From: Nitrospinae bacterium RIFCSPHIGHO2_02_FULL_39_82
Lineage (GTDB): Bacteria > Nitrospinota > Nitrospinia > UBA9942
NCBI GenBank assembly: GCA_001804915.1
Contig: MHDI01000083.1
Span: forward strand, 1 to 54,146
Length of the DNA stretch: 54,146 nucleotides
Direction: 5' to 3'
The position numbers and the translations under genes were made by a program. Under the pieces are notes generated by a model. The model did no database searches, had not been told where the DNA came from, and worked only from the letters and a program-made list of their open reading frames with translations. The stretch's first letter is position 1. Each line of letters starts with the position of its first letter. Of the stretch, positions 8,827 to 10,922 are shown piece after piece.

Positions 8827-8855
8827 TTGACAACCAACCATCTAAAGTTTATATT
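8827..8855 (+). promoter_or_regulatory. sigma-70-type promoter candidate
   Basis: TTGACA (8827-8832), exact 17-nt spacer, TATATT (8850-8855). Lies about 30 bp upstream of the 8887 start in an AT-rich divergent intergenic region. Confidence 0.5.
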
Positions 8856-8886
8856 CTAATCGTATAGGCAATTTCTATAAATCCAT

Positions 8887-9189
8887 ATGGATAAAGAACT
8901 TAAAATCACCTGTCCTGATTGTGGAATAATTCTTACTGTTGATAGAATAACCGGCAAAATTGTTGAGTCCCGTAAACCGATAATAGAAGAGTCAACAGGA
9001 GATAGGTTTGCAGATGCCCTTTTCAAGGTCAAAAAGAACAAGGAAAAACTTTCTGCTACTAAATTTGATGATTTAAAAAGGGAGCAGGAAAAAAAGAAGA
9101 AACTATCGGAGGAGATTTTTAAAACTTCTATGGAAGAAGCAAAAAAGAACAAAGATGTTAAACCCTCTGATATTTTTGATATGGATTAA
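8887..9189 (+). CDS. small zinc-ribbon-like, highly charged protein
   Basis: 100 aa. N-terminal CPDCG motif followed by a Lys/Glu-rich tail. Its stop overlaps the start of the downstream OMP gene. Confidence 0.4.
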   Translation: MDKELKITCPDCGIILTVDRITGKIVESRKPIIEESTGDRFADALFKVKKNKEKLSATKFDDLKREQEKKKKLSEEIFKTSMEEAKKNKDVKPSDIFDMD

Positions 9190-9221
9190 TGAATGCAAAA
9201 AAATTAAAGGAGGGATGTATT

Positions 9222-10508
9222 ATGAAAAAGTTAAAGGCTATTTTGGGATTTTCCCTTTCAATTTTTATCTTATTTGTAACAGCCTCAAATGTAAATGCAA
9301 TAACTGCGTGGGGGAGAAAGTATGGGGTAAGCTGTAATGTCTGTCATATTGCAGGTTATAAACTAACATATGCGGGGCAGCAGTTTTTAAGACACGGGCA
9401 TCAGTTGCCCGGGGCTGAATCAAAAGAGGCAAACATGTCTGACTATTTCTCAATAACAATGAAAATCCGTGCATGGGATAAAAATACCACAGTTCAGCAA
9501 TCAGGAACTGCAGACGCAATTACGACAAAAAATTCCTTTGAGGCGCATGCATTAAGCGTATATTCAGGTGGTCCCCTTGACAGCGGTTTTACATATTTTA
9601 CAGAGATGTATCTGCACGAAAATGAACGGAAAAACCCAGCGGAAAATTATGAAGCAACCGAGTCTGATATGGGTGACTGGGCGAGGTCAAAATTGGCAGA
9701 GGCTTATCTTCAATACGGATATGAAAAAGATGATTTATATTTCACTGCAAGGGCAGGACGAATAATGCCGTGGCTGATACATCTGCATGGTGGCGGTGCG
9801 AGATTAGAATACTCAAGACCATTACCTTTAACTTCAACAGTTGGAGATAACCCTTACCGCCCGTTTTCAAGACAATTTGGTGTAGGTGCCGGTGTCGGCT
9901 ATGGAGAGCTGTTCTTTGAAGCTGGCGTAGTAAATGGGACAGGAAAATATGAAAATACTGTTGAGATCGGAACTGACAAGGCTAAGGACATATATGCATC
10001 CCTTGATTATTCCATTGGGGATAACGGCAGTATGGTTGGATTATATTATTATAATGGCCAGTATCCATTAGATTTATCATATATTCAAAAAGATTTAACT
10101 ACTTTAAAAAAGGCTGAAACCGCTGATAAATTCAATCAGATAGGTATAATGGGGCAATATGTAGCCGAATATGGCGCTTTAATCGCAGCATATTTTAATG
10201 GTTCGGATTCGTATACACCCCTTAATGGAACTTCTGAGACTACATACAAATCTCAAAGCTACTATGCTGAACTTCAGGGCTACTTTAATGATGGTGCCCT
10301 TTCACCCTATTTAAGATGGGAGTACTTTGACCCGGATACAGACAAGTCTGACAGCAGTGAAAAGTCAGGACCTGTACTTGGAATCCATTGGAAACCATTT
10401 GAGCATGGAAGATTTGTGCTGGAGGCATCAAACTATACTACTGCCAACTCTTCAACCAAAAAGACAATAGAAAGAGATATAACATTAGAGGTGCAGTTTA
10501 TGTTCTAA
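9222..10508 (+). CDS. predicted outer-membrane beta-barrel protein with N-terminal CxxCH haem-c motif
   Basis: Signal peptide MKKLKAILGFSLSIFILFVTASNVNA (the ORF track starts at 9189, but the internal Met is the more plausible start). CNVCH lies at mature residues about 12-16. Alternating amphipathic Tyr/Gly-rich strands and a C-terminal ...LEVQFMF ending in Phe are typical of OMP barrels. Confidence 0.5.
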   Translation: MKKLKAILGFSLSIFILFVTASNVNAITAWGRKYGVSCNVCHIAGYKLTYAGQQFLRHGHQLPGAESKEANMSDYFSITMKIRAWDKNTTVQQSGTADAITTKNSFEAHALSVYSGGPLDSGFTYFTEMYLHENERKNPAENYEATESDMGDWARSKLAEAYLQYGYEKDDLYFTARAGRIMPWLIHLHGGGARLEYSRPLPLTSTVGDNPYRPFSRQFGVGAGVGYGELFFEAGVVNGTGKYENTVEIGTDKAKDIYASLDYSIGDNGSMVGLYYYNGQYPLDLSYIQKDLTTLKKAETADKFNQIGIMGQYVAEYGALIAAYFNGSDSYTPLNGTSETTYKSQSYYAELQGYFNDGALSPYLRWEYFDPDTDKSDSSEKSGPVLGIHWKPFEHGRFVLEASNYTTANSSTKKTIERDITLEVQFMF

Positions 10509-10577
10509 TGCCCAATCTCCCTCTCCCTCTATAAAAGGGGTGAGGGAGAAAGAGGGACGAATTTTATAGGAGGAACA

Positions 10578-10922
10578 ATGTTTAGTAAAAATGGAGAAAC
10601 AAAACTAATTCTTTTATGTTCAGTGATTTTTATGCTCCTTGTCTCATTTGCAACTGCCACAGAGGATGGTAAGAAGATTTATGAAAAGAAGTGTACCACA
10701 TGCCATGGAAAAGAGGGGAAAGGTAATGCAGCACTGTTAAAGACGCTCAAAGTTAATGCATCCCTTCTTGACCTGCTGGACAAAGGGACACTGGAAAAAT
10801 CGGATGAGGAGCTTATATCCATAATCTCTAAGGGGATAAACAAGATGCCTGCCTATGGAAAAAATTTAAAGGATGAAGAGATAAAGGATGTTATATCCTA
10901 CATTCGTTCTTTAGTAAAATAG
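10578..10922 (+). CDS. class I monohaem cytochrome c (c553/c6-like)
   Basis: Signal peptide. Single CTTCH haem motif and distal Met ligand region KMPAYG. 114 aa. Confidence 0.75.
   Translation: MFSKNGETKLILLCSVIFMLLVSFATATEDGKKIYEKKCTTCHGKEGKGNAALLKTLKVNASLLDLLDKGTLEKSDEELISIISKGINKMPAYGKNLKDEEIKDVISYIRSLVK

What the first reader, a model, noticed from the sequence alone, without database searches (positions are those of the whole stretch)
8827..10922. Predicted outer-membrane beta-barrel carrying a haem-c motif, in an operon with a c553-like cytochrome and a small zinc-ribbon protein
The 9222-10508 product has a Sec signal peptide, amphipathic beta-strand periodicity and a C-terminal Phe, which are the hallmarks of an OMP barrel. 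Immediately after the signal peptidase site it carries CNVCH, a canonical haem-c attachment site. Barrel-plus-cytochrome fusions are unusual, because porin-cytochrome conduits normally use separate proteins. The gene is translationally coupled to a small CPDCG protein upstream and is followed by a periplasmic monohaem cytochrome c. A consensus sigma-70 promoter (TTGACA-17-TATATT) precedes the unit. The arrangement could be a minimal trans-outer-membrane electron conduit or a haem-dependent OM channel.
Basis: partly seen in the sequence, partly recalled or inferred. Interest (0 to 1): 0.65.

Follow-up and report, generated by a model that had tools for sequence, protein, structure and literature searches.

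The report
Cyc2-like fused cytochrome-porin operon
This gene encodes an outer-membrane pore with a single haem built into its own N-terminus, a divergent relative of the known iron-oxidising protein Cyc2, followed by a small periplasmic cytochrome that probably takes its electrons; the design is known, so this is a new example and not a new kind of system.

Summary

The fusion is not unusual. It is the defining architecture of Cyc2, the fused cytochrome-porin Fe(II) oxidase of Acidithiobacillus and Mariprofundus (Keffer 2021). The window clade is homologous over its full length to proteins with the canonical Cyc2 motif (hhalign 100 %, E 4e-59). Its cytochrome domain matches verified Cyc2PV-1 (96.6 %).

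The motif here is a variant, AITAWGRKY..CNVCH...YKL, against the published AxPxFAR[QK][TY]..CxxCH...PxL. It fails the published strict filter.

CxxCH is kept in 68 of 68 related genomic loci whose N-terminus is present. The downstream monohaem cytochrome recurs in the closest relatives. Elusimicrobia relatives place the gene beside MtrA/MtrB-type modules.

The upstream 100-aa ORF has one CxxC pair, so it is not a zinc ribbon. It is never linked to cyc2-like genes elsewhere. Translational coupling is not supported.

Verdict: a new, unannotated member of a known kind, with modest interest.

The parts
8827..8855 (+). Sigma-70-like promoter candidate, TTGACA-17-TATATT. It lies upstream of the small ORF and is possibly the promoter of the whole + strand unit.
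   Evidence: 11 of 12 matches, the best in 8500-11200. The number of such sites in the region is not above shuffles (11 against 8.4 +/- 3.1). Function is inferred only.
8887..9189 (+). A 100-aa K/E-rich protein with one CPDC pair. It is an adjacent and possibly co-transcribed gene, and it is not a conserved partner of the cytochrome-porin.
   Evidence: Searches show two Cys and no His. It has no Pfam family and no meaningful NCBIfam family: the one NCBIfam match scores 16 bits against a cut-off of 379. It is absent from 70 cyc2-like loci. Homologues at 62-74 % identity lie after a [NiFe]-hydrogenase operon or beside MglA-like genes. No Shine-Dalgarno sequence is visible upstream.
9208..9213 (+). 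Shine-Dalgarno AGGAGG, 8 nt before ATG 9222.
   Evidence: Read from the sequence. Homologues begin at the equivalent of 9222.
9222..10508 (+). Cyc2-like fused monohaem cytochrome c-porin, 428 aa. Signal peptide: residues 1-26 (9222-9299). Variant Cyc2 motif AITAWGRKY: residues 26-34 (9297-9323). Haem site CNVCH: residues 38-42 (9333-9347). YKL in place of PxL: residues 46-48. 16-strand barrel: residues about 76-428 (9447-10505). C-terminal Phe.
10516..10549 (+). Intercistronic hairpin (UCUCCCUC.UCCC / GGGG.GAGGGAGA) between the two cytochrome genes. It may stabilise the mRNA or act as a partial terminator.
   Evidence: MFE -28.1 kcal/mol for 10500-10585, z -2.27. The terminator scan did not call it. 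Function is not tested.
10568..10573 (+). Shine-Dalgarno AGGAGG, 4 nt before ATG 10578.
   Evidence: Read from the sequence.
10578..10922 (+). Periplasmic class-I monohaem cytochrome c, 114 aa. It has a signal peptide, CTTCH and a KMPAYG Met ligand region. It is the likely electron acceptor of the cytochrome-porin.
   Evidence: PF13442 at 2.5e-17, PF00034 at 5.9e-13. (cytochrome c6 PetJ and ccoP models, all below their curated cut-offs). (Kuenenia c-552 7o38 at 8e-10; cytochromes c6). Homologues lie directly downstream of the cyc2-like gene in L002, L003 (three copies), L010, L014, L016 and L046, and within a few kb in L001, L004, L005, L007 and L015.

Best explanation
Gene 9222-10508 encodes a divergent member of the Cyc2 kind of fused cytochrome-porin.

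Proposed pathway:
1. The protein is exported by Sec.
2. One haem c is attached to CNVCH in the periplasm.
3. The C-terminal 350 residues insert into the outer membrane as a 16-strand OprP-like barrel.
4. The roughly 45-residue haem segment stays associated with the barrel.
5. A small soluble reductant reaching the pore reduces the haem. The most likely reductant is dissolved Fe2+ in this low-oxygen aquifer organism.
6. The electron passes to the periplasmic class-I monohaem cytochrome c encoded immediately downstream (10578-10922).
7. From there it goes to a terminal reductase or into the quinone pool.

Shown here: the architecture, the conserved haem site, the barrel fold, the homology to Cyc2 proteins, and the recurrent linkage to the small cytochrome c.

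Inferred: the position of the haem relative to the barrel, Fe(II) as substrate, the inward direction of electron flow, and co-transcription from the 8827 promoter.

The upstream 100-aa gene is a neighbour and not a component.
For: Architecture:
- Signal peptide; the only two Cys lie in CNVCH; C-terminal Phe.
- 16 strands, pTM 0.80.

Homology:
- A profile of the window clade finds 2,992 cluster representatives. They grade continuously into proteins with the canonical motif A[IM]PxFAR[KQ]Y..CxxCH...P[KR]LN at E 1e-25 to 1e-45, over the full length.
- hhalign of the window clade against a canonical-motif set gives 100 %, E 3.7e-59, 393 columns.
- An HMM of the canonical-motif set scores the window protein at 194 bits, full length.
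- Cyc2PV-1, the biochemically verified oxidase, was recovered as P0331 from the published MS peptides, 9 of 12 matching exactly.
- The window clade against the Zetaproteobacterial Cyc2 profile gives 96.6 %, E 5e-10, over the signal peptide plus cytochrome domain.
- The canonical-motif set against that Zetaproteobacterial profile gives 98.3 % over 373 columns.
- Global identity to Cyc2PV-1 is 24 %. Keffer's Fig. S7 table gives mostly 15-23 % for pairs of distant Cyc2 proteins, so 24 % is about the same.

Conservation: CxxCH is kept in 68 of 68 loci.

Context:
- A monohaem cytochrome c lies directly downstream in the closest Nitrospinota and Elusimicrobia relatives.
- Elusimicrobia loci L004, L005 and L007 put the gene next to a DmsE/MtrA-family decahaem cytochrome. 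L004 and L005 also carry an MtrB/PioB porin. All score above the curated cut-offs.
- Nitrospinota loci L001 and L014 add a 9-haem cytochrome with an NrfH/NapC-like N-terminus.

Literature: Cyc2 homologues are already reported in Elusimicrobia MAGs (PMC8357290) and in a Nitrospinae bin (PMC6850669).
Against: - The strict published motif is not met. The window protein has T for P, W for F and G for A upstream of the haem site, and Tyr in place of the PxL proline. The paper says the PxL residues appear to help stabilise the haem.
- Direct similarity to verified Cyc2PV-1 is limited to the N-terminal ~85-95 residues. BLASTP gives E 0.049 and hhalign aligns 84 columns. The barrels connect only through intermediates.
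- No member of this clade has been tested for Fe(II) oxidation.
- Relatives occur in Geothrix, a genus known for Fe(III) reduction (known from the literature, not tested here), and in Opitutia. Neither is a known iron oxidiser.
- Keffer et al. themselves regard the function of divergent (Cluster 3) homologues as uncertain.
- No terminal oxidase or bc1/ACIII genes lie in the window.
- The AF2 model has no haem and I could not inspect its coordinates, so the haem-in-pore geometry is assumed.
Confidence: 0.62

Rival explanations
1. Same protein, opposite direction. The cytochrome-porin exports respiratory electrons from the periplasmic cytochrome c to soluble extracellular acceptors such as chelated Fe(III), humic quinones or shuttles.
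For: Homologues occur in Geothrix fermentans and G. limicola; Geothrix is known from the literature as an Fe(III) reducer, which was not tested here. Elusimicrobia relatives sit next to MtrA/MtrB-type modules, which work in either direction. Multihaem cytochromes are common neighbours. He et al. 2019 find Cyc2 homologues in relatives of Fe(III)-reducing taxa.
Against: Every biochemically tested family member (A. ferrooxidans Cyc2, Cyt572, Cyc2PV-1) is an Fe(II) oxidase. A single haem at roughly +200 mV, the value for PV-1, is a poor reductant for ferric minerals. No quinol dehydrogenase is encoded in the unit.
Confidence: 0.15
2. The haem-porin is a redox or metal sensor at the cell surface. 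It feeds a signalling pathway and does not feed respiration.
For: About 25 of the more distant homologues (30-35 % identity; Opitutia, Bdellovibrio, Geothrix) have an OmpR-type response regulator and a histidine kinase adjacent to the gene, directly downstream in most loci and upstream in the Geothrix-type loci. In the window the unit abuts a Wsp-like chemosensory operon. That operon's MCP carries a CxxCH and it ends in a response-regulator diguanylate cyclase.
Against: The chemosensory operon is on the opposite strand and convergent. It is not conserved next to the gene in the closest relatives (only weak receiver-domain hits, in distant loci). The closest relatives instead conserve electron carriers. 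Adjacent two-component systems may simply regulate the gene.
Confidence: 0.07
3. An ordinary OprP-like anion porin whose CxxCH is incidental and carries no haem.
For: The barrel is structurally closest to the phosphate porin OprP. One homologue carries a precomputed Porin_O_P Pfam hit (P0008).
Against: The two Cys are the only ones in the protein. CxxCH is kept in 68 of 68 loci and across thousands of relatives, together with a flanking conserved motif. Cyc2PV-1 binds haem covalently (Keffer 2021).
Confidence: 0.02
4. One reading: a previously unseen three-gene system in which a zinc-ribbon protein, a barrel-cytochrome fusion and a c553-like cytochrome work together.
For: The three genes are adjacent on one strand behind a good -35/-10 match. 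The identical arrangement recurs on 24 contigs, which look like repeated assemblies of one population.
Against: The small protein has one CxxC pair. It is absent from all 70 related loci. Elsewhere it is found in unrelated contexts. The fusion itself is a known family.
Confidence: 0.03

Closest known systems
Cyc2 fused cytochrome-porins: Cyc2PV-1 of Mariprofundus ferrooxydans, Cyc2 of Acidithiobacillus ferrooxidans, Cyt572 of Leptospirillum (Keffer et al. 2021 mBio, PMC8406198; McAllister et al. 2020, PMC7029218)
   Same: Signal peptide. A single CxxCH about a dozen residues into the mature protein. A conserved A-x-x-x-aromatic-x-R-[KQ]-[YT] element that starts at the signal-peptide cleavage site, with the same 3-residue spacing to the first Cys as in Cyc2PV-1 (RKY-GVS-C here, RQT-GAA-C in PV-1). 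A length of about 430 aa. A 16-strand OprP/OprO-like barrel. Profile-level homology.
   Different: The motif reads AITAWGRKY, with T for P, W for F and G for A. The PxL after the haem site is YKL, with Tyr replacing the proline. Only the cytochrome domain aligns directly with Cluster 1 Cyc2. The hosts are groundwater Nitrospinota and Elusimicrobia, not classical iron oxidisers. Nothing in this clade is characterised. There is no Pfam or NCBIfam model and the public annotation is 'hypothetical protein'.
The cyc2-cyc1 gene pair of the A. ferrooxidans rus operon (known from the literature; describes Cyc1 as a dihaem periplasmic carrier)
   Same: An outer-membrane Cyc2-type gene is followed directly by the gene for a soluble periplasmic c-type cytochrome that would carry the electron inward.
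   Different: The partner here is a 114-aa monohaem c6/c552-like cytochrome, not the dihaem c4-type Cyc1. No rusticyanin or cytochrome oxidase genes follow; the next gene is convergent.
MtrAB / MtoAB / PioAB porin-cytochrome complexes
   Same: They carry out trans-outer-membrane electron transfer. They are genomically co-located with this clade in the Elusimicrobia loci L004, L005 and L007.
OprP / OprO phosphate-selective porins of Pseudomonas (PDB 2o4v, 4rjw)
   Different: They have no haem domain and 14 % sequence identity. They are anion channels, not redox proteins.

Membership tests
Cyc2-like fused cytochrome-porins (homology-defined family) | N-terminal Sec signal peptide | tested here: met
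   MKKLKAILGFSLSIFILFVTASNVNA|ITAW was read from the translation. No signal-peptide predictor was available. The same region is present in homologues.
Cyc2-like fused cytochrome-porins (homology-defined family) | Exactly one CxxCH, near the N-terminus of the mature protein, and conserved | tested here: met
   C38, C41 and H42 are present, with no other Cys. The motif is kept in all full-length homologues and in 68 of 68 genomic loci.
Cyc2-like fused cytochrome-porins (homology-defined family) | C-terminal 16-strand porin with an OprO/OprP-like fold, and a total length of at least 365 aa | tested here: met
Cyc2-like fused cytochrome-porins (homology-defined family) | Sequence homology to a biochemically verified Cyc2 | tested here: met
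   Cyc2PV-1 was identified as P0331 from published MS peptides. The window-clade profile against the Zetaproteobacterial Cyc2 profile gives 96.6 %, E 5e-10, over the cytochrome domain only. Full-length homology runs through canonical-motif intermediates: 100 %, E 3.7e-59 and 98.3 % over 373 columns. A. ferrooxidans Cyc2 and Cyt572 were not available for comparison.
Cyc2 sensu Keffer et al. 2021 (motif-filtered set) | PxFAR[Q/K][T/Y] (consensus AxPxFAR[Q/K][T/Y]) upstream of CxxCH | tested here: not met
   The window has AITAWGRKY, which differs at P (T), F (W) and A (G). The clade consensus is AI[TPA]AW[AGS]RKY. Among the 127 nearest cluster representatives whose N-terminal motif could be read, W and F are equally common (62 against 60) and only 24 pass the strict pattern. 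The published screen therefore removes many evident homologues. I do not file the protein in this narrower set.
Cyc2 sensu Keffer et al. 2021 (motif-filtered set) | PxL motif 4 residues after CxxCH | tested here: not met
   The window has H-IAG-YKL, with Tyr at the proline position and Leu kept. The nearest relatives have Y or F at that position.
Cyc2 as called by FeGenie (Cluster 1, 2 or 3 HMMs) | Bit score above the cluster-specific cut-off, plus a haem motif and at least 365 aa | not testable with these tools
   The FeGenie HMMs are not available here. The haem motif and length criteria are met. FeGenie has called Cyc2 in an Elusimicrobia MAG (PMC8357290), but I could not check whether that protein belongs to this clade.
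Cyc2 family (functional definition) | Fe(II)-oxidising activity and a covalently bound haem | not testable with these tools
   This needs expression and biochemistry. No member of this clade has been tested.
MtrB/PioB porin-cytochrome complexes | A separate decahaem cytochrome and a large (about 26-strand, 650-800 aa) porin matching TIGR03509 | tested here: not met
   There is no NCBIfam hit. The barrel has 16 strands. No multihaem gene lies in the unit. Relatives carry such modules as separate neighbouring genes.

The most novel reading that the evidence does not exclude
The W-type clade (AIxAWxRKY..CxxCH..G[YF]KL, without the PxL proline that the paper says appears to help stabilise the haem) may be a distinct Cyc2 cluster that published trees have effectively not counted, because their motif filter removes it. 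It is found in groundwater Nitrospinota, Elusimicrobia, Eisenbacteria and allied candidate phyla. Its haem environment and potential would differ from canonical Cyc2, and so might its physiological partner or substrate. It would feed small monohaem and NapC-like multihaem cytochromes, or work alongside MtrAB modules. That would extend Cyc2-type electron uptake, or export, to lineages not counted as iron-cycling.
Probability: 0.25. Interest if true: 0.5.

Novelty: new member of a known kind. Interest (0 to 1): 0.3.

Why it matters
Cyc2 is the most widely used genetic marker for neutrophilic Fe(II) oxidation. This locus shows that a sizeable set of evident homologues carries Trp in place of Phe in the diagnostic motif, and sometimes lacks the PxL proline. 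Among the 127 nearest cluster representatives with a readable motif, about half have Trp. Motif-based screens would therefore miss them, and neither Pfam nor NCBIfam has a model, so they remain 'hypothetical protein'. This matters for estimates of which subsurface lineages can exchange electrons with iron. Here those lineages include Nitrospinota and Elusimicrobia from a low-oxygen aquifer. It does not reveal a new mechanism.

Tried and rejected
- The AFDB Foldseek library was unavailable, so no named UniProt Cyc2 structures could be matched.
- A PDB sequence search with the clade profile found no solved Cyc2, only a marginal cytochrome c at E 0.22.
- Pfam and NCBIfam give nothing for the cytochrome-porin.
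- tblastn of the protein against PLSDB plasmids gave no match.
- A search with a canonical-motif alignment returned only unnamed metagenome proteins plus Acidobacteria, Geothrix and Bacteroidota proteins, and no classical iron oxidiser.
- Two cluster look-ups gave only three organism names: Ignavibacteria, Nitrospira and Armatimonadota.
- A literature search for motif strings such as FARKT hit German 'Infarkt' papers and was useless.
- Keffer's supplements S2, S7, S8 and Table S2 hold no sequences. Table S1, the MS peptides, was what finally allowed Cyc2PV-1 to be recovered.
- The zinc-ribbon idea for the 100-aa protein is rejected because it has only one CxxC pair.
- An MtrB-type conduit is rejected (16 strands, no decahaem partner in the unit).
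- The 439-aa gene model that starts at ATG 9189 is rejected in favour of ATG 9222 (Shine-Dalgarno sequence plus homologue starts).
- I could not read the model coordinates. Whether the haem segment plugs the barrel therefore remains untested.
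Full report
**What is there.** Between two minus-strand gene blocks lie three plus-strand ORFs: 8887-9189 (100 aa), 9222-10508 (428 aa) and 10578-10922 (114 aa). The window matches a contig of 'Nitrospinae bacterium RIFCSPLOWO2_02_FULL_39_110', where the middle gene is a 439-aa 'hypothetical protein' (P0001). 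The identical gene order is seen on 24 assembled contigs, which look like repeated assemblies of one population.

The NCBI model starts at ATG 9189 and overlaps the upstream stop codon by one base. Homologues start at the position of ATG 9222. That start has an AGGAGG 8 nt upstream and yields a textbook signal peptide, MKKLKAILGFSLSIFILFVTASNVNA|ITAW.

**The observation checked.**
- The protein has only two cysteines, and both are in CNVCH at residues 38-42.
- It ends in EVQFMF, with the terminal Phe at least 90 % conserved.
- AlphaFold2 on a 23-sequence alignment gives pLDDT 79.7 and pTM 0.80. The model has a short helical N-terminal segment followed by 16 beta-strands.
- CxxCH is present in every full-length homologue. 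It is present in 68 of 68 related genomic loci whose N-terminus is on the contig.
- The downstream protein is a class-I monohaem cytochrome c (PF13442 at 2.5e-17). It is closest to a Kuenenia c-552 and to cytochromes c6.
- The TTGACA-17-TATATT site at 8827-8855 is real and is the best match in the region. Promoter-like matches are not enriched over shuffles in this AT-rich DNA.
- The 'zinc ribbon' is not real. The 100-aa protein has a single CPDC pair and no histidine.

**What it is.** The architecture is a signal peptide, one CxxCH in a short N-terminal domain and a 16-strand OprO/OprP-like porin, in about 430 aa. This is the published description of Cyc2, the fused cytochrome-porin Fe(II) oxidase (Keffer et al. 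2021). That paper names two diagnostic motifs. One is AxPxFAR[Q/K][T/Y] upstream of the haem site. The other is PxL four residues after it. The window protein reads AITAWGRKY-GVS-CNVCH-IAG-YKL. This has the same register and keeps the A, R, K, Y and L positions. It has W for F, T for P and G for A upstream, and Y in place of the PxL proline.

*Profile search.* A profile of the window clade, searched against 1.84 billion cluster representatives, found 2,992 hits at E <= 1e-3 and 632 at E <= 1e-10. Reading their N-termini shows a continuum. It runs from the W-type motif to the canonical A[IM]PxFAR[KQ]Y..CxxCH...P[KR]LN, at E 1e-25 to 1e-45 and over the full length. Among the 127 representatives whose N-terminal motif could be read, 62 have W and 60 have F at the aromatic position. 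Only 24 pass the strict published pattern.

*Link to canonical-motif proteins.* A profile-profile comparison of the window clade (A1) with 20 canonical-motif proteins (A2) gives probability 100 %, E 3.7e-59, over 393 columns.

*Link to a biochemically verified protein.* I took the tandem-MS peptides of Cyc2PV-1 from Keffer's Table S1, concatenated them and searched. The best hit, P0331 (436 aa, Mariprofundus ferrooxydans), contains 9 of the 12 peptides exactly. The other three differ only by text-extraction slips. P0331 is therefore Cyc2PV-1, and it reads AIPAFARQT-GAA-CLSCH-FQTF-PAL.
- BLASTP of the window protein against it aligns only the first 79 mature residues (28 %, E 0.049).
- Global identity is 24 %. 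Keffer's Fig. S7 table gives mostly 15-23 % for pairs of distant Cyc2 proteins, so 24 % is about the same.
- At profile level, A1 against a Zetaproteobacterial Cyc2 alignment (A3) gives 96.6 %, E 5e-10, over the signal peptide plus cytochrome domain.
- A2 against A3 gives 98.3 % over 373 columns.

So the cytochrome domain is directly homologous to verified Cyc2. The barrel is connected through intermediates. This is expected for a family whose porin part is known to be poorly conserved.

**Context elsewhere.** A scan of one genome per GTDB species found 70 loci. The organisms are groundwater Nitrospinota, many Elusimicrobia, Eisenbacteria, Firestonebacteria, Saganbacteria, Lindowbacteria, Bdellovibrionales, Geothrix and other Holophagaceae, Opitutia and Fimbriimonadales.
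- The 100-aa ORF is in none of these loci. Its own homologues (62-74 % identity) lie after a [NiFe]-hydrogenase small/large/cytochrome b operon and before a hydrogenase maturation protease, or beside MglA-like genes. It is a real gene but an accidental neighbour.
- Homologues of the 114-aa cytochrome lie directly downstream of the cyc2-like gene in L002, L003 (three copies), L010, L014, L016 and L046. They lie within a few kb in L001, L004, L005, L007 and L015.
- L001 has two tandem cyc2-like paralogues. L001 and L014 add a 427-aa nine-haem cytochrome with an NrfH/NapC-like N-terminus.
- In the Elusimicrobia loci L004, L005 and L007 the gene is next to a DmsE/MtrA-family decahaem cytochrome (263-276 bits, cut-off 192). 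L004 and L005 also carry an MtrB/PioB porin (297-306 bits, cut-off 240).
- The closest relatives are thus consistently embedded among extracellular-electron-transfer genes.
- A more distant subclade (Opitutia, Bdellovibrio, Geothrix) is instead adjacent to an OmpR-type response regulator and a histidine kinase, downstream in most loci and upstream in the Geothrix-type loci.

**How it most likely works.**
- Shown: a Sec-exported protein with a conserved covalent haem-c site fused to a 16-strand outer-membrane barrel, homologous to Cyc2, and encoded with a periplasmic monohaem cytochrome c.
- Inferred by analogy with Cyc2PV-1, A. ferrooxidans Cyc2 and Cyt572: dissolved Fe2+ reaches the haem through or at the pore and is oxidised. 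The electron goes to the small cytochrome c, and from there to a terminal reductase or the quinone pool.
- The gene pair parallels the cyc2-cyc1 pair of the A. ferrooxidans rus operon, which I know from the literature. The carrier here is a monohaem c6/c552-type protein and not a dihaem c4.
- I give about 0.9 to 'Cyc2-kind fused cytochrome-porin' and about 0.6 to the full Fe(II)-oxidation pathway.

**Rivals.**
- The same protein working outward, to soluble Fe(III) or humics. Homologues in the Fe(III)-reducing genus Geothrix and the MtrAB neighbours support this (0.15).
- A surface redox sensor. This is suggested by the two-component neighbours in distant relatives and by the adjacent Wsp-like operon with a haem-motif MCP. 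Against it, that operon is convergent here and is not conserved near the gene in close relatives (0.07).
- A plain porin with an incidental motif (0.02).

**Comparison with what is known, and novelty.** The protein meets every structural and homology criterion of the Cyc2 kind. It does not meet the strict motif filter that Keffer et al. used to assemble their tree. I therefore file it as a Cyc2-like family member by homology, and not as a member of the motif-filtered set. Cyc2 homologues have already been reported in Elusimicrobia MAGs and in a Nitrospinae bin. The lineage is therefore not a surprise either.

The modest new point is that the W-type variant is common and is invisible to motif screens, to Pfam and to NCBIfam.

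**Verdict.** This is a new, unannotated member of a known kind. Interest is 0.3.

Noticed in passing
window 10993-20542 (-): A complete Wsp-like chemosensory operon: CheR-TPR (18977-20542), two CheW genes (18516-18980 and 17894-18544), an MCP (16324-17907), a CheA-receiver hybrid (13605-16298), CheB (12532-13608) and a response-regulator diguanylate cyclase (10993-12450). The MCP matches the Mcp40H-20_sensor Pfam family and contains a CxxCH, so it may be a haem-c redox-sensing receptor controlling c-di-GMP. The operon is convergent with the cytochrome unit.
   Followed up: partly
window 50103-52767 (+): A NapC/NirT-family membrane cytochrome (183 aa, 3 CxxCH), then an octahaem cytochrome (422 aa, PF13447), then an FGE-sulfatase-domain protein. 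An ammonium transporter gene lies just upstream (48694-50037). This is a second respiratory cytochrome module in the window.
   Followed up: partly
window 187-8619 (-): An ExbD, ExbD, ExbB cluster followed by three large TPR proteins (358, 963 and 645 aa) and a 178-aa secreted protein with no family. It resembles a Tol/Ton-like energised outer-membrane system and lies immediately upstream of, and divergent from, the cytochrome unit.
   Followed up: no
window 10516-10549 (+): A stable GC-rich hairpin between the cyc2-like and cytochrome c genes (MFE -28 kcal/mol for 10500-10585, z -2.3), followed about 10 nt later by UUUU. It could set the stoichiometry of the two transcripts.
   Followed up: partly
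L071 4001-4303, L072 4001-4303, L073 4001-4300: Homologues of the 100-aa ORF (62-74 % identity) also have a single CxxC pair. In L071 and L072 they sit between a [NiFe]-hydrogenase (small, large and cytochrome b subunits) and a hydrogenase maturation protease, with hypA/hypB-like genes nearby. This is a small conserved protein of unknown role that turns up in different operon contexts.
   Followed up: partly
L004 6990-10267; L005 1361-4514; L007 6391-7299; L001 6553-9546; L014 1630-3304: In Elusimicrobia, cyc2-like genes lie beside MtrA/DmsE decahaem cytochromes, and in L004 and L005 also beside MtrB/PioB porin genes. In related Nitrospinota there are tandem cyc2-like paralogues (L001) plus a monohaem c and a nine-haem NrfH-like cytochrome. 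This suggests composite electron-uptake islands.
   Followed up: partly
L028-L060 (for example L040 6399-8520, L031 6412-8858, L032 2791-4867): A distant subclade of cyc2-like genes (motif AIPAWSRQ.G.SC..CHATPTWQL) occurs in Opitutia, Bdellovibrio and Geothrix. It is almost always adjacent to an OmpR-type response regulator and a histidine kinase, downstream in most loci and upstream in the Geothrix-type loci. The association is conserved and unexplained.
   Followed up: partly
proteins P0052-P0198 (profile hits): At the aromatic position of the published Cyc2 motif, Trp is as common as Phe (62 against 60 of 127). Only 24 of the 127 pass the strict PxFAR[QK][TY] pattern. Motif-based Cyc2 censuses probably undercount the family.
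   Followed up: yes
window 44410-45258 (-): A 282-aa ORF with an IS200-like Y1 transposase domain (PF01797), about twice the length of the domain itself.
   Followed up: no
window 30596-32236 (+): A single 546-aa ORF combines prephenate dehydrogenase (PDH_N and PDH_C) with a complete cytidylate kinase domain. It is an apparent tyrA-cmk fusion lying upstream of the ribosomal protein S1 gene.
   Followed up: no
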